From a phage: a stretch of DNA of 40,893 nucleotides. The notes under the pieces were generated by a model. That model saw only the letters and a list, made by a program, of their open reading frames with translations, was not told the origin of the DNA and ran no database searches. Each line of letters opens with the position of its first letter. The first letter of the stretch is position 1. The stretch lies in the sequence record PZ513996.1, one strand, 5' to 3'. Positions 10,582 through 28,014 of this stretch are shown here, piece by piece. The translations under genes were made by a program, and so were the position numbers.

Positions 10582-11406
10582 ATGTCAGATGATATTTCAG
10601 CAGTACCAAGCGAAGTTCCAGCAACTATAGTTGTTGAGAATGTCGACGGCCCCAAGATTCCGGGCCCTGGCGCAAACGTTAAGGCACCAAACATGCAAGG
10701 TGTGCCTGAGGTCGCAGTAGCTCCTGCTCCTGCTACGCTTGATATTGAAGCGCTGTCTAAGCTACTTAATAAATCAGAGGCTCCGACTCCTGCTTCAGCT
10801 CAGACTGAATTAGCAGAGACAGGTAATCCAGCAATTGATGCTGGTATTGCTATGCTCAAACAAGTATCTAAACTGAATGACTCGGACATGGTCCGTGCTA
10901 TCGGTAAGGCTATTGAGTATGGTGATGCTAACTTAATTGATAAGGCATTCATCCAAGAACGTTTCGGTGAACATGCTGCATATGCAGAGATGCTAGCTAA
11001 GGCGTATCTGGAAGACCAAGTAGGTCAGGTTCAGAAGGCAGTTAATTCGGCTTATGAAATGGCTGGCGGTAAAGAGCAATGGGATGCAGCGACGCAGGTA
11101 TTTAATGCTAAGGCTCCCGAGCACATCCGTAAGGCTGCACGTGCACTCGCCGATTCAGGCGATATCGCAGGGGCTGCTAAGTTCGTTATCGAGACTTGTC
11201 AAAGCCTCGGCGTAATGGCGACTATTAATCCTAAGTTTCAAGGCGCACCTGGCTCTGCTGGTGCTCTTAGTGCTAAGGCATTCAGCGAAGAATATTCTAA
11301 ACTTCGCAAAGAGGTAGGTAACCGCAGCTTGCAGTCTCAAGCTTTCGCTGGTCGCTACCAAGACCTGTTAGACCGTCGCACTGCTGGTAAGCGTGCTGGG
11401 CTGTAA
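10582..11406 (+). CDS. scaffolding protein
   Basis: 274 aa, acidic, Ala/Pro-rich N-terminus then helical region; sits between capsid and portal. Confidence 0.55.
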   Translation: MSDDISAVPSEVPATIVVENVDGPKIPGPGANVKAPNMQGVPEVAVAPAPATLDIEALSKLLNKSEAPTPASAQTELAETGNPAIDAGIAMLKQVSKLNDSDMVRAIGKAIEYGDANLIDKAFIQERFGEHAAYAEMLAKAYLEDQVGQVQKAVNSAYEMAGGKEQWDAATQVFNAKAPEHIRKAARALADSGDIAGAAKFVIETCQSLGVMATINPKFQGAPGSAGALSAKAFSEEYSKLRKEVGNRSLQSQAFAGRYQDLLDRRTAGKRAGL

Positions 11407-12963
11407 ATGCAAAAGCGTTTAGCAGATTTATTCGTTCGATTGAAGGATGCATCTACACTAGACGCTGCTGAGCAATACGCTCGCTGGACACTTCCTAACG
11501 TATTCACTAAGGATATTACAGCGAGTGACGGTAAGCGTACTTCTCTGGTGCATGACTATCAGAGTACTGGTGCGCTGCTTGTCAACTCAGCAGCTACTAA
11601 GATTGTAGATGCATTGTTTCCACAAGGCAGTCCATTCTTTAGATTCGCGGCATCCGCTGACCTTACAGGGATTGTTGACCAATTAGGTCTGCAAGGTCCG
11701 GTCTTCTCAGCTCAGGCTGAAATGGAAGCTGTAGCATCTAGTATCGTATTCACTAAAGGTGGGTATGCTGCAAAGCTACGCGCTATTAAACTATTACTCG
11801 TAACTGGCAATGCTCTGGAATACTTCGACTCCGAAACTGAACGTTCTTACGTATACAGCGTGCGCGATTATGCTACTAAGCGTGATGGAGCCGGTAACGT
11901 ACTGACTACAATCCTACGTGAACGTATCAGCGTTGCGGATATCCCAGATGATATCCGACGAGCTCACTTCTCCAATAAGGAGATGTACGATGATGTGCGC
12001 TTATTTACTGGAATTATGCGTGAGCGTCGTGAGCTTGGTTATGTATATAAAGTATATCAGGAAGTCGAAACCTACCCTGTAGGTGAGCCTAGCTATTATC
12101 CTGAGGACCAATGTCCGTACGTAGTACTGGCATGGAACCTTGTTAATGGTGAGCACTACGGTCGTAGCCTCGTTGAGGATTACGCTGGTGACTTCGCCCG
12201 TTTATCTGTACTTTCCCGTAGCTTAACCTTGTATGAGGTGGAAGCAGCGAGAGTAGTTAACATGGTTAGCTCAGCTTCTGGTGTAGATATTGATGCATTG
12301 CAAGATGCAGAGACAGGTGAGTTCGTACAGACTAACCAGCCCGCAGGTACCAGTTCTGGAGTATGGTCCCATGAAGGTGGGAACGCTCAGAAGATTGCCG
12401 CGCTACAAGCTGAGATTAGCACTATCGAGCAGAAGCTATCCCGTGCATTCATGTACGGCGGTAACACTCGTCAAGGTGAGCGTGTAACTGCTTATGAGAT
12501 TCGTCAGAATGCTCAAGAAGCACAATCAGCCTTAGGTGACGCTTACTCTACACTTGCAGATAATTGGCTTCGTAAACTCGCGTACCTGTACGTTCTTAAT
12601 AAGTATCCTGAGATTCGACCTATGTTCGAGCTCGGTGCATTGGAGCTGGATGTAACGGTAGGGACCGCTAGCTTGTACAAGTCAGCCCAGGCTGATAGAC
12701 TACTTGAAGCAGTACAGAGTCTTCAATTAATTGTACCAGTACTGCAACAGGCAACTGTACGTACTAACGTTGATGCTTTGATTGACAGTGTAATGGATAG
12801 CTTCGGCATTCAGAGCAGTGCCTTCTTCTATAGTGAAGAGGAATTGCAAGCACGCCAGCAAGCAGAGCAAGCACAGCAGCAGCAGGACCAGCAGCAGCAG
12901 CAATCATTATTGCAAGTTACTGACCCGACTGTAGCAGGTCAACAATTAGGTTTAATTCAATAA
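11407..12963 (+). CDS. portal (head-tail connector) protein, T7 gp8-like
   Basis: 518 aa; NGEHYGRSLVEDYAGDF and TRQGERVTAYEIRQNA match T7 gp8 DGESYGRSYIEEYLGDL and QRTGERVTAEEIRYVA. Confidence 0.85.
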   Translation: MQKRLADLFVRLKDASTLDAAEQYARWTLPNVFTKDITASDGKRTSLVHDYQSTGALLVNSAATKIVDALFPQGSPFFRFAASADLTGIVDQLGLQGPVFSAQAEMEAVASSIVFTKGGYAAKLRAIKLLLVTGNALEYFDSETERSYVYSVRDYATKRDGAGNVLTTILRERISVADIPDDIRRAHFSNKEMYDDVRLFTGIMRERRELGYVYKVYQEVETYPVGEPSYYPEDQCPYVVLAWNLVNGEHYGRSLVEDYAGDFARLSVLSRSLTLYEVEAARVVNMVSSASGVDIDALQDAETGEFVQTNQPAGTSSGVWSHEGGNAQKIAALQAEISTIEQKLSRAFMYGGNTRQGERVTAYEIRQNAQEAQSALGDAYSTLADNWLRKLAYLYVLNKYPEIRPMFELGALELDVTVGTASLYKSAQADRLLEAVQSLQLIVPVLQQATVRTNVDALIDSVMDSFGIQSSAFFYSEEELQARQQAEQAQQQQDQQQQQSLLQVTDPTVAGQQLGLIQ

Positions 12964-19881: not shown

Positions 19882-20682
19882 ATGACTATCAATCTGAACG
19901 CACTGTCTTCCCTCGTTAACGAAACCGTAGCTACTCAGGGCATCGACCAGTCAGTAACACAGGCTGGCGGTAACTTCGCTGATGTACTGCTTCCGCGTGG
20001 TACTTACTTTGGTCGCTTCATGGAGTACATCGAGTTAGGTAAAAAGATTCCTATGCACATGGGTAAGCCGACTGGCAAGCCAGCAGTAATGAACGTGCGC
20101 TTAGGCTTCATCGTTTACACCCCTGATGGTTCTATCAAGCGTATTAATCCGTTCCCAATGGCCATTAGCAGCTTCGAGAAAGCTAAGTTTAAACAAGTCT
20201 TCGACAAGATGAACTATGACGGCACGCTGAAGCACATGGCACAACGTCTAGGCCAAGCGTTCATGTTTGAGGTTGAGCAGTACACCAGTAAGGCTGGTAA
20301 GACTTCTAACACCATCGACTTCCTGAGTCTGCGTACTCTACCTAAGTTTGACCCGCAGACTGGCGCTCCGGTAGAGCTGCCAGCATTGGACGAATCAGGT
20401 CTTCGTCTGTTCCTGTTTGATAACCCGACTAAAGAAACTTGGGATTCTCTGCATATTGAGAAGAACAATTTTCTGCAAGAAGATATTTTAAGCGCTGTTA
20501 ACTTCGAAGGCTCGGCTCTTCAGCAGATGCTAATGGGCGATGTTCCTGACATGGCGGCTATGGCTGCACCTGCTTCAGTATCTGCACCTGCTGCACCTGC
20601 TGCACCTGCTGCACCTGCTGCTCCAGTAGCTCCAGTAGCTCCAGCCGCACCTACATTCGCTGTTGTTCCTCCTGCACTTTAA
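19882..20682 (+). CDS. hypothetical protein with C-terminal Pro/Ala repeat
   Basis: 266 aa; C-terminus APASVSAPAAPAAPAAPAAPVAPVAPAAP low-complexity tail. Confidence 0.3.
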   Translation: MTINLNALSSLVNETVATQGIDQSVTQAGGNFADVLLPRGTYFGRFMEYIELGKKIPMHMGKPTGKPAVMNVRLGFIVYTPDGSIKRINPFPMAISSFEKAKFKQVFDKMNYDGTLKHMAQRLGQAFMFEVEQYTSKAGKTSNTIDFLSLRTLPKFDPQTGAPVELPALDESGLRLFLFDNPTKETWDSLHIEKNNFLQEDILSAVNFEGSALQQMLMGDVPDMAAMAAPASVSAPAAPAAPAAPAAPVAPVAPAAPTFAVVPPAL

Positions 20683-21669: not shown

Positions 21670-22251
21670 ATGAACTATCAAGAAATCTGCGAAAAGTATA
21701 AGTTAGGAAGACTGCACAGCGTTGACCTGCGCCGCGCTAACCTGCGCGACGCTGACCTGCGCGACGCTGACCTGAGCAGTGCTAACCTGCGCGACGTTGA
21801 CCTGCGCGGCGCTAACCTGCGCTACGCTAACCTGCGCGGCGCTGACCTGACCGGCACTGACCTGCGCGGCGCTGACCTGAGCGGCGCTGACCTGCGCGAC
21901 GTTGACCTGCGCGGCGCTGACCTGCGCGGCGCTGACCTGACCGGCACTGACCTGCGCGACGCTGACCTGCGCGAAGCTGACCTGCGCAGCGCTAACCTGC
22001 GCCGCGCTGACCTGCGCGGCGCCAAGACTGTCATTATATACGGAGAAACGTACTTCATTAGTATCTGTAATGACATAGTGCGTGTAGGATGTCAGCAGCA
22101 TACGGCAGCAGAGTGGCGCAGCTTCAGTAAGCGCCAGGTTGCGGAAATGGACGGTAAGAGTTCGCTGAAGTATTATCCACGCTTACTAGACCTGATTGAC
22201 TTTTACTGCGGTAAGGGTGAGCGTCCTGATTGGGTTAATGTAAGCGAATAA
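21670..22251 (+). CDS. pentapeptide-repeat protein with C-terminal globular domain
   Basis: 193 aa; ~20 consecutive A(D/N)L(R/S/T)x pentapeptides ([20 protein letters not shown]...), then a 70-aa non-repeat C-terminus. Confidence 0.85.
21715..22021 (+). repeat. coding tandem repeat array, 15-nt period (gctgacctgcgcggc-like), pentapeptide-repeat gene 1
   Basis: near-identical 15-mers at nucleotide level; generates spurious long ORFs on the opposite strand. Confidence 0.9.
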
Positions 22252-22440
22252 ATGAAAGTTCGCATTCTTAACTACAGTGCATATGGTGTAGGCGAGATGT
22301 TCGAGTACATGGATAGATTCCCGGTAGGCAGTGTTCACGAAGTATATGAGTTCTTCCCTGACACAGGAGAGGTTGATTTAGGAGATGAAGATGAGGAGTT
22401 TACTTTTGCACCCTCTGAGTATGAAGTTGTGGAGAAGTAG
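22252..22440 (+). CDS. hypothetical small acidic protein
   Basis: 62 aa; C-terminal DLGDEDEEFTFAPSEYEVVEK. Confidence 0.3.
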   Translation: MKVRILNYSAYGVGEMFEYMDRFPVGSVHEVYEFFPDTGEVDLGDEDEEFTFAPSEYEVVEK

Positions 22441-22558
22441 GTGCACGGGAGGAACCGCTCAAGCTCGTACTATCTACCCAGAGCTTTCAGGAGGGCACCG
22501 GGATTAAAGTCCCCGGTGACTATCAATCCGCTTTGCTATCTGCATCTCGTCTTGATGA

Positions 22559-22607
22559 AATGAATGACCTTGCACATTATTTTATTGGGATGGAACAAGA
22601 TGGCTAA
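22559..22607 (+). repeat. 49-nt duplicate of 24849..24897 (aatgaatgaccttgcacattattttattgggatggaacaagatggctaa)
   Basis: read directly; duplicates the 3' end of the exonuclease-domain ORF across the start of the polymerase-domain ORF. Confidence 0.85.
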
Positions 22608-23751
22608 GTTAGCTTCAGACTTCTTCAAAACATACAAAGAAATGACTACACGCCAGAAGGACCTCGGCTTCTATGAAGTACGTGAGACTAATAAGGATGG
22701 CAGTCTGCGTAAGGTGACGGGCATGCTGCCGTACGTCATCCCTACATCAGCAGATGGTTCTGGCATCATTCACCACAGGTCGAATCACTGCTCAACTACT
22801 ACCGGACGCCTGTCAACATCTAACCCGAACATGCAGCAGCTGCCGCGTGAGTCTAAGGTTAAGCAGATTCTGCGTAGCCGCTATGGTGAGCAGGGTATGA
22901 TTGCACAGTGTGACTACTCAGCTATGGAGGTTGTAATGGGCTGTGTAATCACTGGTGATAAGAAATTACTGAGCTTGCTTGAAGCCGGTACGGATATGCA
23001 CTGCTATCGTCTAGCATTCCAAGAAGGTATGCCTTATGAAGAAGTCTACGAGCTTTGCCATAACCTGGATGCACCGGACCATAAAGGATGGAAGAAGAAG
23101 CGAACAGCCATCAAAACCTTCAGCTTCGCAGCACAATATGGAGCATCCGCTAAAGGACTGGCGTTCGCCTCAGGTGCTAGCTTAGCCGACGCTGAGAAGT
23201 TCTTAGCTAACGAGGAGGCACTATTCCCTGAGTCTATTAAGTACAGGGATGTCATTGCAGCTGAAGTAAACCGTACTGCGCTGCTGGAGCCTATACGCCG
23301 TGAACAAGCAGATGACGGCAGCTGGCGTATCTATCGCGAGGGCTACTTCACTACGCCTTGCGGTACTCGCTACCGCTTCCGTCAGAAGCCGGTGTGGCGC
23401 GAAGGTAAGCAGGTAATGGACTTTAAGCCCACAGAGATGGCTAACTATCCGTTTCAAGGATCAGGTTCCCTGCTTATGCTTATTGCAACCGGAATGGCTA
23501 TGAGGGCTGGTATAGCTGACAATTGGATGGGGGGTAAATGGTGTTTGCTGGTTACCGTCCATGACTGTTTGTACATAGATTGTGCTGACGAAGAGACGGC
23601 CCGTAAGGCGGGTAAGCTCATCAAAAACGTTATGGAAGGAGCCCGTGATAGGATGCTACAGCTGTGGCCTAACTTTGGCATACTGTCTGAAGTTAAGTTT
23701 CCCGCTGAATGTGAGATTGGTAAGTCCTTTAAAGGGGAGATGGTAATTTAA
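22564..23751 (+). CDS. DNA polymerase, family A, polymerase (palm/fingers) domain ORF
   Basis: 395 aa; GRLSTSNPNMQQLP, DYSAMEV (motif A), KRTAIKTFSFAAQYG (motif B), VHD (motif C). Confidence 0.8.
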   Translation: MTLHIILLGWNKMAKLASDFFKTYKEMTTRQKDLGFYEVRETNKDGSLRKVTGMLPYVIPTSADGSGIIHHRSNHCSTTTGRLSTSNPNMQQLPRESKVKQILRSRYGEQGMIAQCDYSAMEVVMGCVITGDKKLLSLLEAGTDMHCYRLAFQEGMPYEEVYELCHNLDAPDHKGWKKKRTAIKTFSFAAQYGASAKGLAFASGASLADAEKFLANEEALFPESIKYRDVIAAEVNRTALLEPIRREQADDGSWRIYREGYFTTPCGTRYRFRQKPVWREGKQVMDFKPTEMANYPFQGSGSLLMLIATGMAMRAGIADNWMGGKWCLLVTVHDCLYIDCADEETARKAGKLIKNVMEGARDRMLQLWPNFGILSEVKFPAECEIGKSFKGEMVI

Positions 23752-24897
23752 ATGAGTAGCATTCTAATTTGGGATATTGAAACTCAAAATCATCCGTACT
23801 ACGGCGGGGTCGCAACTCCGTACTGCCCTGATAACTACATCGTAGAATCAGGCTTCCGCATCGATAGGACTATGCCGGATGGGACTGTACAGTGCAGCGA
23901 GGTGCAGAGTGTACGCTATGAATCCCGAACTGATTTCTTAGCAGCTGACCCTAAGCAGTGGCTACCTATTCAGGATGATACGTGGTTAATCGTAGCGCAC
24001 AACGCAGCGTACGAGATTAGCTGGGCGCTGACCTTTGCCCGTGAGCAGTTCGAGTCGTTCCTTAGACGAGGAGGTCGAGTCTTTGATACTATGCAGGGCG
24101 AGTACATTGCCAGCGACTTCCAGAATCTTTACCCGTCACTAGATGAGACTGCCCCTAAGTATGGCGGGTCACACAAAGTCGACGGCGTTAAGCTACTATG
24201 GCAGCAAGGGGTTCTGACAGCAGACATTGACCCTATGCTACTACATGAATACTTAACAGGGCCTAACGGTGACATAGTCAACACAGCGCTGTGCTTCTAC
24301 GGGCAATGCGCAGTATTTGCGGAACGTGGACAGATGCCTATGGTCTGGGAAAGGATGGAGGCAGTCGCAGCTCTGGCATACTGTGAGTTCAATGGCGTGT
24401 ACGTTGATATGCCTACAGCCAGAGCTAATCAGAAGGAGCAGGAGGACGCTATTCGGAATCTGCGGGAGTTACTTCAGACATTCTTGCCAGAATTGCCAGA
24501 GGGCTTCGAGTTTAAATGGAATAGCGGTTATCATATGTCCGCTTTAGTGTATGGCGGCACGGTTAAGTACAAGTGCAAGGTTCCTTATGACCCACCTAAA
24601 TACATTAAGAAGGAAGTACAGGACGGGGTGTATAAGTCTGGGCGTAATAAGGGTATGCCTAAGTTCATAAAAGTAGACACTGACGAGCAAGCTATGAAGT
24701 GGGGTGAACGCCTGTACCGCTTCGACGGGCTGGTTAATATTCAGGACCTACCTCAGTCTCTACGTGAGAAGTACGGAGACCGCGGTGAATACAAAGGTGC
24801 TCAAACATTAGCGGATGGTAGCCCTGTGTACAGCACAGGAATGGACGCAATGAATGACCTTGCACATTATTTTATTGGGATGGAACAAGATGGCTAA
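23752..24897 (+). CDS. DNA polymerase, family A, 3'-5' exonuclease domain ORF
   Basis: 381 aa; IWDIET (Exo I DxE) and AHNAAYE (Exo II-like); 3' end shares 49 nt with the region upstream of and overlapping the polymerase-domain ORF start. Confidence 0.75.
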   Translation: MSSILIWDIETQNHPYYGGVATPYCPDNYIVESGFRIDRTMPDGTVQCSEVQSVRYESRTDFLAADPKQWLPIQDDTWLIVAHNAAYEISWALTFAREQFESFLRRGGRVFDTMQGEYIASDFQNLYPSLDETAPKYGGSHKVDGVKLLWQQGVLTADIDPMLLHEYLTGPNGDIVNTALCFYGQCAVFAERGQMPMVWERMEAVAALAYCEFNGVYVDMPTARANQKEQEDAIRNLRELLQTFLPELPEGFEFKWNSGYHMSALVYGGTVKYKCKVPYDPPKYIKKEVQDGVYKSGRNKGMPKFIKVDTDEQAMKWGERLYRFDGLVNIQDLPQSLREKYGDRGEYKGAQTLADGSPVYSTGMDAMNDLAHYFIGMEQDG

Positions 24898-26913: not shown

Positions 26914-27684
26914 ATGGCTAACGAGCAATGGCTTAGAGCAGCACAGAGATTGGCTGTTGGTCAAACTGAAAGATTCCGATGCTGCGGTAAAACAGCAGCA
27001 GCAGTAATCAGGAACGAGCCAGATAAGTGGACTTGCTCTTGCTTCAGATGCAAGTCATATCATTCAGAGCGTAAGCAGTACGCTCAATTAGCAGTACCAG
27101 AAGTGCTGGGGCGTGAGTTAGCCGCCCCTCAGGACCTGAAGCCGCTGCCTGAACTGGACGTAGGGCTTCAGCAGTTCCTATACGGATTCTTAATACAGAA
27201 AGGCATCTGGCCTGATATGGTCGGCGACGTTTATTACTCAGAACAATACAAGAGGTTAGTGTGGAAATTATCAACGGGAAGTTACATAGCAAGAGCACTG
27301 CACGAGTACCAGCATCCGAAGTGGGTGATGCTAGGGAAGTCATTACAGTGGGTGCAGCTTGGGAATACTGGAACCATAACGATACTGACCGAGGACTACC
27401 TTTCAGCGCTGAAGGTTCAGCAGGTCTTGGAGAAGTATTCTTCACAGACTGCTCAGGCAATAGCTTTGCTTGGGACGAAGTTTCCGCTTGGGCTTAAGGC
27501 CCAACTTATTAAAGAAGGTAAGCCAGTAATCTGTATGTTAGACGATGACCGTGCAGGTTGGAACGGCACGGTTTCAATTACTAAGCAACTTAAGCCCTTC
27601 GTGCCCGTGCATGATAGGCATCTGAACGTAGACCCAAAGGCTGCTCAATGCAGCCAAATACTTGGAGCACTTGATGGACTTTAA
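26914..27684 (+). CDS. DNA primase (zinc-ribbon + TOPRIM-like)
   Basis: 256 aa; Cys cluster FRCCGK...WTCSCFRC and acidic ICMLDDDRAG motif. Confidence 0.5.
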   Translation: MANEQWLRAAQRLAVGQTERFRCCGKTAAAVIRNEPDKWTCSCFRCKSYHSERKQYAQLAVPEVLGRELAAPQDLKPLPELDVGLQQFLYGFLIQKGIWPDMVGDVYYSEQYKRLVWKLSTGSYIARALHEYQHPKWVMLGKSLQWVQLGNTGTITILTEDYLSALKVQQVLEKYSSQTAQAIALLGTKFPLGLKAQLIKEGKPVICMLDDDRAGWNGTVSITKQLKPFVPVHDRHLNVDPKAAQCSQILGALDGL

Positions 27685-28014
27685 ATGTTACCAGTAGAAG
27701 AAGTAACAGAGCAGTACTGGCGTATGCTCGAGAGCCAGAGCAGCTTAGGCCTTAAGACGTTAAAGGACGTACCGATTGAACTGCGTAAGCTCTGCCCTTT
27801 AAAATGGTGCAGGGACTACGATACTAAGGAAGGTATGCGGTTGTTGGTAGGTTATTATAAGTATGATGCTGAAAGGGCCTCAGAGGTCCTGCGACGCATC
27901 AATTTCGATATAGTAAGGCAGTTGCAGCAGCTGGGGTATGAGGGCGCTAAGCAGGCGTTTAAGGCTGCTTGCATTGAGTATTATGAATGGCAGACATCCT
28001 ACAGAGGCATCTAA
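27685..28014 (+). CDS. hypothetical protein
   Basis: 109 aa ORF. Confidence 0.3.
   Translation: MLPVEEVTEQYWRMLESQSSLGLKTLKDVPIELRKLCPLKWCRDYDTKEGMRLLVGYYKYDAERASEVLRRINFDIVRQLQQLGYEGAKQAFKAACIEYYEWQTSYRGI

What the first reader, a model, noticed from the sequence alone, without database searches (positions are those of the whole stretch)
21670..22251. Second pentapeptide-repeat paralog with a C-terminal domain; repeats nearly identical at DNA level
It shares the MxYxxICxKYKL N-terminus with the other copy but adds a 70-aa Cys-containing C-terminal domain. It sits between the metallophosphoesterase and the polymerase genes. The 15-nt units are near-identical within and between the two genes, implying recent expansion or gene conversion and a recombination hotspot.
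Basis: partly seen in the sequence, partly recalled or inferred. Interest (0 to 1): 0.6.

Follow-up and report, generated by a model that had tools for sequence, protein, structure and literature searches.

The report
Phage pentapeptide-repeat gene with hypervariable array
This is a real accessory gene of an E. coli K1 phage: a beta-helix of twenty near-identical 5-residue repeats joined to a conserved but uncharacterised 75-residue end domain, and its repeat block changes length quickly between related phages; its function is unknown.

Summary
Window 21670-22251 (+) is a 193-aa ORF with a 17-aa N-terminal cap, 20 tandem 15-nt units (A[D/N]Lxx) and a 76-aa C-terminal domain. A 178-aa paralog lies at 28015-28551 and has 31 units.

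The window is 100% identical to Escherichia phage vB_EcoP_P64441 (Slopekvirinae), but every CDS has been flipped individually, so the gene order in the window is artificial.

The arrays show concerted evolution. One codon backbone (GCT GAC CTG CGC GGC) is used throughout, and unit differences are 74.5 nonsynonymous against 3.5 synonymous steps. Orthologs carry 4 to about 31 units.

The paralog is a derivative that lost the C-domain by deletion. It shares a 69-nt exact tract with the first gene although their N-termini are only 61% identical.

The protein is not a Qnr or MfpA member. Function is inferred only: probably an early or middle host-interaction factor.

It is a new variant of a known kind, of moderate interest.

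The parts
21670..22251 (+). PRP-A: complete CDS, 193 aa plus stop. GenBank XXQ42861.1, 'pentapeptide repeat-containing protein'.
   Evidence: ORF list and translation. 100% identical to PQ847473.1 20490-21071. PF00805 E=4e-38. AlphaFold2 model with mean pLDDT 85.
21670..21720 (+). N-terminal cap, 17 aa ([17 protein letters not shown]). It is shared with the paralog and with orthologs.
   Evidence: 9/17 aa and 31/51 nt identical to the paralog, with third codon positions 7/17. Orthologs begin MNYLDICEKYNV... or MNYLNICKQYNV.... The model has a helix at residues 3-9 at low confidence.
21721..22020 (+). [quoted passage not shown]
   Evidence: TRF and pattern search. Unit table. The backbone GCT GAC CTG CGC GGC has 1.5 synonymous against 28.5 nonsynonymous steps from consensus. 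The model shows one short strand per unit. The closest solved sequences are consensus or cyanobacterial pentapeptide proteins.
22021..22251 (+). Conserved C-terminal domain, aa 118-193. It has four short strands followed by four helices, with motif G..Y.I.I....V.aGCQ.H...EW..F....I..MDG..aL.FYP.LL.iiDF.
   Evidence: tblastn finds 150 phage records. phmmer finds 237 representatives at E<=1e-3. Alignments A1-A3. Domain model with pLDDT 89.8 and pTM 0.80. No Pfam, NCBIfam, PADLOC or PDB match; the only PHROG hit, 37032, has unknown function.
28015..28551 (+). PRP-B: the paralog, 178 aa. It has the same N-cap type, 31 units and no C-domain, and it is acidic (net charge -12, pI 4.4).
   Evidence: It is absent from the same slot in PAS7, S.Kent 1-2-1 and metagenomic contig L012.
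28531..28551 (+). Tail of PRP-B (GCTGATTGGGTTAGTATCTAA), homologous to the last codons of PRP-A (22221-22237 region). It marks the deletion that removed the C-domain.
   Evidence: Local alignment GCGTC-CTGATTGGGTTA against GCGTCGCTGATTGGGTTA.
21905..21973 (+). 69-nt tract identical to 28460-28528 in PRP-B. It spans the rare [10 protein letters not shown] unit pair.
   Evidence: Longest common substring is 69 nt, against the longest exact repeats inside each array of 39 and 48 nt.
21703..22101 (-). Antisense ORF (132 aa), together with 21822-22076 (84 aa). These are by-products of a stop-free repeat and are not genes.
   Evidence: The same artefact was annotated as 'modular polyketide synthase' in phage PAS7.
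20683..21669 (+). Neighbouring metallophosphoesterase, natively downstream of PRP-A. It accompanies PRP-A in all five genomes or contigs that carry PRP-A.
   Evidence: PF00149 and phrog_221 at E=7e-108. Synteny hyp62, PRP-A, 326-328-aa protein in P64441, PAS7, L012, L014 and L015.
22252..22440 (+). 62-aa hypothetical ORF, natively just upstream of PRP-A.
   Evidence: phrog_6862, unknown function.

Best explanation
PRP-A is a functional accessory gene of a lytic K1-specific Slopekvirinae phage, and it has three modules.

(i) A short N-terminal cap.

(ii) A pentapeptide-repeat beta-helix of about 5 coils. Its 15-nt coding units expand, contract and are homogenised by slipped-strand or unequal recombination. 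The inward-facing Ala and Leu stay fixed, while the exposed positions (D/N, and the fourth and fifth residues) vary almost only by amino-acid-changing substitutions.

(iii) A conserved alpha/beta domain of about 65-75 aa. This domain defines a widespread, uncharacterised phage family in which it is attached to many unrelated kinds of tandem-repeat solenoid, or stands alone.

PRP-B is a copy that lost module (iii) by an internal deletion. It has since exchanged array sequence with PRP-A.

Shown here: the anatomy, the homology, purifying selection on the C-domain, concerted evolution of the array, length polymorphism, and the origin of the paralog.

Inferred only: the C-domain is the constant binding or oligomerisation module. 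The solenoid is a rigid, fast-evolving surface or spacer. The protein acts in the cytoplasm at early or middle times on a host, or competing-element, macromolecule, most likely in counter-defence or host takeover.
For: Real gene: it is identical to a GenBank CDS, and orthologs sit in the same slot in four independent assemblies.

Fold: PF00805 and an AF2 model with pLDDT 85. PDB pentapeptide proteins are the top hits by sequence and by fold.

C-domain: 237 representatives match. Of 127 whose core motif could be located, 66 follow pentapeptide repeats, 13 follow hexapeptide-type repeats, 25 follow other, mostly repeat-bearing, N-terminal regions, and 23 have fewer than 30 residues in front. Third-position identity of 44-47% against about 82% at positions 1 and 2 between orthologs shows purifying selection.

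Concerted evolution: Sd 3.5 against Nd 74.5, binomial P=1.6e-8, or 8e-6 on distinct units only. Nucleotide positions 7-9 (Leu) never vary. The phage L array uses GCC..GGT instead. Short arrays retain synonymous variants.

Length variation: 4, 8, 11, 20 and about 31 units among Slopekvirinae orthologs. Salmonella prophage alleles with identical N- and C-termini carry 2 or more units, with more than 11 seen in truncated records. Phages L and ST64T differ by one 15-bp unit (PMC8022706). A pentapeptide gene in near-identical Caulobacter phages differs by a 375-bp deletion (PMC11053796).

Paralog origin: the tail homology and the 69-nt tract.

Early or accessory context: the phage L homolog lies in the PL operon between ral (antirestriction) and gene 17/cIII/kil. 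Other homologs lie beside repressor, N or integrase regions. The gene is present in only some close relatives.
Against: There is no experimental or homology-based functional evidence. Every curated library searched returns nothing or 'unknown' for the C-domain. Literature searches found no characterised member.

The counter-defence reading rests only on genomic neighbourhood and evolutionary mode.

The net charge of orthologs ranges from +5 to -9. A conserved DNA-mimic role for the solenoid is therefore doubtful.

The excess of nonsynonymous differences could partly reflect constraint on synonymous sites rather than positive selection. The same codon backbone persists in four arrays whose flanks are saturated at synonymous sites.

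The PAS7 ortholog is frameshifted, so the gene is dispensable at least there, unless that is an assembly error.
Confidence: 0.55

Rival explanations
1. It is a Qnr/MfpA/McbG/AlbG-type topoisomerase-interacting pentapeptide protein. A head-to-head dimer would mimic a DNA segment and bind DNA gyrase, either protecting it or inhibiting it during phage replication.
For: It has the same fold class; QnrB1, MfpA and AlbG are found by sequence and fold search. It is located among the replication genes. Phage-encoded gyrase inhibitors exist, although they are not pentapeptide proteins (PMC10886550).
Against: The NCBIfam Qnr model scores 45.6 bits (PRP-A) and 68 bits (PRP-B) against a cut-off of 240. 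The MfpA model scores 48.3 and 69.1 bits against a cut-off of 360. The closest solved sequences are consensus or cyanobacterial pentapeptide proteins, not Qnr. The C-terminal dimerisation helix of those proteins is replaced by a different 75-aa domain with no fold match. Helix length ranges from about 1 to 8 coils among orthologs, which does not fit mimicry of a fixed DNA segment. PRP-A is nearly neutral (net -2), and one ortholog is basic.
Confidence: 0.12
2. It is a phage-encoded exclusion or defence factor acting against other phages or mobile elements, rather than a counter-defence or takeover factor.
For: Homologs are common in prophages and lie in variable regions near the immunity region. 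One family member is fused to a TIR-like domain, PF08937.
Against: There is no PADLOC match. In P22-like phages the gene lies in the PL operon among lytic early genes, which by textbook knowledge is repressed in lysogens. P64441 belongs to Autographivirales and is taken to be lytic.
Confidence: 0.12
3. The repeat works at the DNA level, for example as iterons, a recombination hotspot or a spacer, and the reading frame is incidental. Alternatively the gene is a decaying remnant.
For: The array is open in several frames on both strands. Two direct arrays flank the replication module in the native genome. Synonymous positions are frozen across lineages. The PAS7 copy is frameshifted.
Against: Variation is confined to the codon positions that change exposed residues, while the inward Ala and Leu codons are invariant. 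The attached C-domain is under purifying selection. In P22-like phages the homolog is far from the replication origin. Relatives use quite different repeat types at the protein level with the same C-domain.
Confidence: 0.04
4. The array, its length and the paralog are assembly artefacts of short-read data.
For: Many database homologs are labelled 'partial' and end inside arrays. PAS7 has an internal 4-nt deletion. One representative starts in a shifted frame.
Against: The window matches a finished GenBank genome exactly. Both arrays are embedded in unique flanks. Length differences were reported from PacBio plus Illumina data for phage L against ST64T (PMC8022706).
Confidence: 0.03

Closest known systems
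orf232 of Salmonella phage ST64T and its homolog in phage L (P22-like Lederbergvirus early-left-operon pentapeptide protein; PHROG 37032/7713)
   Same: It has the same three-part architecture. The C-domain is 64% identical. The 15-nt A[D/N]Lxx units are homogenised within the array. Gain or loss of one 15-bp unit between near-identical phages is documented (PMC8022706).
   Different: It has a different N-terminal cap (MNSADLSKILEEHKVW...) and a different synonymous backbone (GCC..GGT). It is in a temperate siphophage-like or podophage lambdoid context (PL operon, next to ral) rather than the replication module of an Autographivirales phage. Its function is equally unknown.
Qnr / MfpA / AlbG / McbG topoisomerase-protecting pentapeptide repeat proteins
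   Same: They share the right-handed quadrilateral beta-helix built of A(D/N)LXX repeats.
   Different: The scores fall far below the family cut-offs. PRP-A has no protruding loops and a near-neutral charge. Its C-terminus is a separate domain rather than a dimerisation helix. Its helix length is hypervariable.
Consensus or cyanobacterial pentapeptide proteins (Np275/276, HetL All3740, Alr5209, designed 'beta1' solenoids)
   Same: They give the highest sequence similarity of the repeat region (E=4e-46 to 1e-17), and their repeats are almost ideal consensus units.
   Different: These lack the C-domain. They are chromosomal proteins of unrelated biology or synthetic designs. PRP-B's 179-bit hit to the Alr5209 model (cut-off 125) is spread over four stretches of a 113-position profile, which I read as a repeat effect.
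DNA-mimic anti-restriction proteins (T7 Ocr, ArdA)
   Same: Both are phage early accessory proteins. PRP-B is strongly acidic (pI 4.4). The P22-like homolog sits next to ral.
   Different: The folds are unrelated. PRP-A and several orthologs are not acidic. McbG and QnrB, tested as DNA mimics, did not inhibit BREX (PMC7261183). No anti-restriction test exists for this family.
Bacterial contingency loci and other coding tandem repeats that change length by slippage
   Same: They share in-frame unit gain and loss, DNA-level homogenisation, and frameshifted alleles (PAS7).
   Different: The unit here is 15 nt, so slippage keeps the frame. This is length and surface variation rather than on/off switching. 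It occurs in a virus rather than a bacterium.

Membership tests
Pentapeptide repeat protein superfamily (PF00805) | At least eight contiguous A(D/N)LXX pentapeptides scoring above the Pfam gathering cut-off. | tested here: met
   20 contiguous units; 128.9 bits against a cut-off of 20.2. The paralog has 31 units and 194.1 bits.
Pentapeptide repeat protein superfamily (PF00805) | [quoted passage not shown] | tested here: met
   The AF2 model has pLDDT 82-93 over residues 21-110, with one short strand every five residues. Foldseek finds PDB pentapeptide proteins at E down to 5e-9. This is a prediction only; no structure has been solved.
Qnr family (NCBIfam NF033086) | Score at or above the curated cut-off of 240 bits over the full 211-position profile. 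| tested here: not met
   45.6 bits (PRP-A) and 68 bits (PRP-B), as partial stretches only.
Qnr family (NCBIfam NF033086) | Protection of DNA gyrase or topoisomerase IV from quinolones. | not testable with these tools
   This needs MIC or supercoiling assays.
MfpA (NCBIfam NF000349) | Score at or above 360 bits; C-terminal helix-mediated head-to-head dimer. | tested here: not met
   48.3 and 69.1 bits. The C-terminus is a 76-aa strand-plus-helix domain. Its oligomeric state was not predicted.
ST64T orf232-like phage family (PHROG 37032; no curated name) | Conserved C-terminal domain with G..Y / GCQxH / W / MDG / FYPxLL motifs following a tandem-repeat solenoid. | tested here: met
   phrog_37032 at E=3e-32 for the domain alone. 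64% identity to the ST64T, L and epsilon34 proteins. Invariant G140, C141, W149 and M160 in alignment A2.
ST64T orf232-like phage family (PHROG 37032; no curated name) | Repeat-number polymorphism between close relatives. | tested here: met
   4, 8, 11, 20 and about 31 units in Slopekvirinae orthologs. Salmonella alleles also vary. PMC8022706 documents the same.
DNA-mimic anti-restriction proteins (Ocr/ArdA-like, by function) | Strongly acidic surface imitating the DNA backbone. | tested here: not met
   For PRP-A, the finding: net charge -2, pI 5.8. Orthologs range from +5 to -9. PRP-B alone is acidic, at -12 and pI 4.4.
Diversity-generating retroelement target | A reverse transcriptase and template repeat in the genome, with adenine-specific variation. 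| tested here: not met
   None of the 53 annotated features of the 43-kb genome is a reverse transcriptase. Variable unit positions include G, C and T sites.

The most novel reading that the evidence does not exclude
The conserved C-domain defines a large, undescribed family of phage effector proteins. In this family a constant binding module is coupled to a deliberately mutable tandem-repeat solenoid. This would be a viral contingency locus, whose length and exposed residues are tuned in an arms race with a host immune sensor or nuclease. PRP-B would be an acidic solenoid-only offshoot acting as a decoy.
Probability: 0.2. Interest if true: 0.7.

Novelty: new variant of a known kind. Interest (0 to 1): 0.42.

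Why it matters
Pentapeptide-repeat proteins are common in phage genomes. Searches of the held literature found none whose role in infection has been established.

This locus gives a compact, testable case. It has a conserved domain with no match in any library searched. That domain is attached to a repeat block that changes length between near-identical phages and varies almost only at exposed residues. A natural domain-deletion paralog sits in the same genome.

If the C-domain proves to be a host-binding module, it would annotate hundreds of phage and prophage genes, including the long-unexplained orf232 of P22-like phages. It would also show that phages use slippage-prone coding repeats to diversify an intracellular protein.

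There are practical consequences too. The arrays break assemblies and mislead annotators, as with the antisense 'polyketide synthase' call in PAS7. Two direct arrays flanking the replication genes are also a potential source of genome instability in a phage group studied as therapeutic candidates.

Tried and rejected
- A word-indexed protein search with the C-domain alone returned only 3 hits. It needed the exhaustive phmmer search and a profile query.
- A PDB sequence search with the C-domain profile gave only chance TPR matches, E>=0.38.
- The afdb50 Foldseek library was unavailable.
- BFVD returned only members of the same uncharacterised family.
- Pfam scans of 40 domain sequences gave nothing below E=0.0075.
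- PADLOC gave no hit, and NCBIfam gave no hit for the C-domain.
- Five literature searches and seven papers yielded no functional study of a phage pentapeptide protein.
- The per-codon log-probability under genome codon usage did not discriminate the repeats from the flanks. It was replaced by synonymous/nonsynonymous counting.
- Sigma-70 promoter and terminator scans of the native loci gave no decisive signal for either gene.
- A DGR origin of the variation was rejected: there is no reverse transcriptase, and the variation is not adenine-specific.
- Strict functional linkage to the phosphoesterase was considered. It co-occurs in 5 of 5 genomes or contigs carrying PRP-A, but these are close relatives, so this may be lineage rather than function.
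- Yersinia phage fEV-1 g01 looked like a first early gene but lies next to the terminase genes.

Full report
SOURCE AND A CAVEAT ABOUT THE WINDOW

The region around the finding is 100% identical to Escherichia phage vB_EcoP_P64441 (PQ847473.1; Autographivirales, Autoscriptoviridae, Slopekvirinae). This is a 43-kb podophage carrying an endo-N-acetylneuraminidase, so it is taken to be K1-specific.

A whole-window BLAST shows that the window is not collinear with that record. Every CDS has been turned to the + strand while being kept in the record's ascending order. Overlapping gene ends are duplicated, and most intergenic DNA is trimmed or left unflipped. Adjacency in the window is therefore real, but gene order relative to transcription is reversed.

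The native order is: PRP-B, hyp, primase, helicase, HNH, two hyps, DNA polymerase (exo half, pol half), hyp62, PRP-A, phosphoesterase... exonuclease ... RNA polymerase. I used the native locus L001 for anything that depends on flanks.

THE OBSERVATION

Window 21670-22251 (+) is an ATG-initiated ORF of 193 aa.

Tandem Repeats Finder reports a period-15 array of 20.3 copies at 21719-22022. A second array of 31.5 copies lies at 28063-28535. The unit pattern matches 50 times in the window against 1.9 expected by chance, and 48 of these lie in the two genes.

Both proteins match Pfam PF00805, at E=4e-38 and 2e-58. GenBank already calls both 'pentapeptide repeat-containing protein'.

The N-termini share M.Y..IC.KYKL. 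The last 76 residues of PRP-A are non-repetitive and contain three cysteines. One small correction: a 62-aa ORF separates the gene from the polymerase.

THE C-TERMINAL DOMAIN IS REAL AND WIDESPREAD

tblastn of the 75 C-terminal residues finds 150 phage records. These include P22-like Salmonella phages (ST64T, L, epsilon34, g341c; 64% identity), Edwardsiella, Vibrio, Acinetobacter, Caulobacter and Rheinheimera phages. Nearly all hits lie under genes annotated as pentapeptide proteins.

An exhaustive phmmer search of 1.84 billion cluster representatives gives 237 proteins at E<=1e-3. I could locate the core motif in 127 of the 150 listed. Among those, the domain follows:
- a pentapeptide-type array in 66;
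- a hexapeptide GNAxVx (YdcK-type) array in 13;
- other N-terminal regions in 25, mostly other short repeats such as GGGIKA, GDLNCK and an 18-mer;
- fewer than 30 residues in 23, i.e. it essentially stands alone.

Conserved positions are G125, Y128, G140, C141, W149, M160, D161 and G162.

Between P64441, PAS7 and a metagenomic relative (L012), the domain's codon positions 1 and 2 are 79-91% identical, while position 3 is only 44-66% identical. This is the pattern of a translated sequence under purifying selection.

AlphaFold2 gives a confident model for the domain alone: pLDDT 89.8, pTM 0.80, four short strands followed by four helices.

Nothing known resembles it:
- no Pfam hit;
- no NCBIfam or PADLOC hit;
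- PHROG 37032, 'unknown function';
- no PDB sequence match;
- BFVD matches only to the same family.

THE REPEAT ARRAY EVOLVES IN CONCERT

All 51 units of the two genes share one codon backbone, GCT GAC/AAC CTG CGC GGC.

The phage's codon usage does not explain this. Elsewhere in the genome CTG, CGC and GGC are used for only 28%, 24% and 23% of Leu, Arg and Gly codons.

Counted against the consensus unit, the differences amount to 74.5 nonsynonymous and 3.5 synonymous steps, where 31% synonymous would be expected from random mutation. The binomial P is 1.6e-8, and 8e-6 when each distinct unit is counted once.

The Leu codon never varies, and the Ala codon changes only to Val or Thr. Variation sits at nucleotide positions 4, 10-11 and 13-14. 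By the established pentapeptide geometry, these code for the residues that face outward (review PMC8145042).

Lineage comparison shows the classic signature of concerted evolution. The Salmonella phage L array is equally homogeneous but uses GCC ... GGT. Short orthologous arrays (4 and 11 units) still carry CTA, CTT, CGT, GGT, GAT and AAT. The long arrays are therefore recent expansions of one founder unit.

One point remains unexplained. P64441-A, P64441-B, PAS7 and L012 all share the same founder backbone, although synonymous sites in their flanks are near saturation. Exchange of array DNA between phages and paralogs, or selection on codons, could each account for it.

LENGTH VARIANTS EXIST

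Orthologs in the same slot (hyp62, PRP-A, 326-328-aa phosphoesterase) have:
- 4 units (L014, 108 aa);
- 8 units (L012, 127 aa);
- 11 units (L015, 142 aa);
- 20 units (P64441);
- about 31 units (PAS7).

The PAS7 gene is broken by a 4-nt deletion inside the array. It was annotated as an antisense 'modular polyketide synthase' plus a 75-aa ORF.

Salmonella prophage alleles with identical N- and C-termini carry from 2 units upward. Longer arrays, of more than 11 units, appear in records that break off inside the array, and many are labelled 'partial' for that reason.

The literature agrees. Phages L and ST64T are more than 99.9% identical and differ at only two sites, one of which is a single 15-bp unit in orf232 (PMC8022706). 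Near-identical Caulobacter phages differ by a 375-bp deletion in a pentapeptide gene (PMC11053796).

ORIGIN OF THE PARALOG

PRP-B (28015-28551) shares the N-cap with PRP-A, at 9/17 aa. Its DNA there is only 31/51 identical, with third positions 7/17, so this part is old. About 10 nt of upstream ribosome-binding region also align. This supports the 178-aa start rather than GenBank's 195-aa start.

Its last 21 nt align with the extreme 3' end of PRP-A: GCGTC(G)CTGATTGGGTTA, coding ...DWV in both. PRP-B is therefore an A-type gene from which the C-domain was deleted.

The two arrays share a 69-nt exact tract (21905-21973 = 28460-28528) that spans the rare [10 protein letters not shown] pair. This is longer than any exact repeat within either array, which reach 39 and 48 nt. 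Such a mosaic, with old flanks and a young shared block, is what gene conversion or recent recombination between the arrays would produce.

PRP-B is absent from the same slot in PAS7, S.Kent 1-2-1 and L012, so it is a recent acquisition of P64441. PRP-A itself is accessory. ECO104 4-5-2 and S.Kent 1-2-1 carry a different phosphoesterase-like gene and no pentapeptide gene in that slot.

In the native genome the two direct arrays lie 6.3 kb apart and bracket the primase, helicase and polymerase genes. Recombination between them would delete essential genes. This is a real but unmeasured cost.

WHAT IT DOES

Nothing in the curated libraries or in the papers searched assigns a function.

Membership in the gyrase-interacting families was tested and failed. 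The Qnr model scores 45.6 and 68 bits against a cut-off of 240. The MfpA model scores 48.3 and 69.1 bits against a cut-off of 360. The repeat region is closest to consensus or cyanobacterial pentapeptide proteins.

PRP-A is nearly neutral (net -2, pI 5.8). Its orthologs range from +5 to -9, and only PRP-B is clearly acidic (-12, pI 4.4). Helix length ranges from one to eight coils. These facts argue against a conserved DNA-segment-mimic role for the solenoid of PRP-A.

What is constant across the family is the C-domain. It occurs with many unrelated repeat types and also on its own. I therefore infer that it is the binding or oligomerisation module, and that the solenoid is a rigid, fast-evolving extension.

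Context gives the only functional hint. In phage L the homolog lies in the early-left operon between the anti-restriction gene ral and genes 17, cIII and kil, upstream of erf and abc1/abc2. Other homologs sit next to repressor, N or integrase regions or at the head of early operons. In P64441 both copies are inserted between core replication genes.

Patchy distribution, rapid length change and amino-acid-only variation at exposed positions fit a host-interaction or counter-defence protein. This is inference, not demonstration. I put it at roughly one in three, with exclusion or defence and gyrase targeting as the main rivals.

NOVELTY AND SCORE

The gene is already annotated as a pentapeptide-repeat protein. 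Its P22-like homolog has been on record since the ST64T genome paper (2003, as cited in PMC8022706), and unit indels have been reported.

Five things are new here:
- the delineation of the C-domain as an autonomous, library-absent module coupled to diverse solenoids;
- the quantitative evidence for concerted evolution, with almost exclusively nonsynonymous unit differences;
- the 4 to about 31 unit series among orthologs;
- the deletion origin of the paralog;
- the shared 69-nt tract.

This is a new variant of a known kind, of moderate interest (0.42). It would rise substantially if the C-domain proved to be a host-targeting module.

Noticed in passing
whole window (e.g. 18058-18984/18985-19506; 22441-22565): The window is not collinear with its source genome PQ847473.1. 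Each CDS is individually turned to the + strand but kept in the record's ascending order. Overlapping gene ends are duplicated, and intergenic DNA is trimmed or left in record orientation. Gene order relative to transcription is therefore reversed, and native promoters and RBS contexts are lost.
   Followed up: yes
L004 (phage PAS7, OQ921331.1) 10867-11612: The PAS7 ortholog has about 31 units and is interrupted by a 4-nt deletion (GGCG) inside the array. GenBank annotates the antisense strand of the array as 'modular polyketide synthase' and the C-domain as a separate 75-aa hypothetical protein.
   Followed up: yes
window 22564-23751 and 23752-24897; L005/L006: The family-A DNA polymerase is split into an exonuclease ORF (381 aa) and a polymerase ORF that overlap by 8 nt in the native genome; PAS7 and contig L012 have the same two-ORF split with short overlaps. 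In ECO104 4-5-2 and S.Kent 1-2-1 the polymerase half aligns in two pieces separated by about 730 nt, which may be an intron, intein or homing-endonuclease insertion.
   Followed up: partly
L005 6398-7582 (ECO104 4-5-2): Close relatives lacking PRP-A carry a different 394-aa protein with GDxxxD and GNHDH motifs (phosphoesterase-like) in place of PRP-A plus the 328-aa phosphoesterase. PRP-A co-occurs with the 326-328-aa type in all five genomes or contigs that have it.
   Followed up: partly
L001 8465-8492 (native intergenic region between polymerase and hyp62): A sigma-70-like promoter, TTGACA-16-TAGAAT (11 of 12), lies upstream of hyp62, PRP-A and the phosphoesterase. A weak terminator-like hairpin at 8918-8937 lies just before PRP-A.
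   Followed up: no
window 20563-20644: The 3' end of the 266-aa hypothetical gene holds 9-nt tandem repeats coding an Ala-Pro-rich tail (APAAPAAPAAPV...).
   Followed up: no
window 28015 vs GenBank CDS 27205-27792: GenBank starts PRP-B 17 codons further upstream (195 aa). The ATG at window 28015 aligns with PRP-A's start codon and upstream AGGTTA..ATG region, which favours the 178-aa product.
   Followed up: yes
proteins P0263, P0011, P0259/P0260, P0149, P0006 (homolog searches): The C-domain also occurs in other arrangements: fused to a TIR-like domain (PF08937), fused to a protein named DUF551, after YdcK-type solenoid repeats (PF18836), and in a tandem duplicated solenoid-plus-domain arrangement. 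One representative begins with 'PTCSVPTCAV...', an out-of-frame reading of a pentapeptide array.
   Followed up: partly
window 28015-28548 vs NCBIfam NF052603: PRP-B exceeds the curated cut-off of the cyanobacterial 'Alr5209 family' equivalog model (179 against 125 bits), with four matched stretches on a 113-position profile. This reads as a repeat-driven false family assignment that automated annotation could propagate.
   Followed up: no
native genome L001 2382-2846 and 9052-9351: The two arrays are direct repeats 6.3 kb apart that bracket the primase, helicase and polymerase genes. They share 119 position pairs of exact 25-mers, so recombination between them would excise the replication module.
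   Followed up: partly
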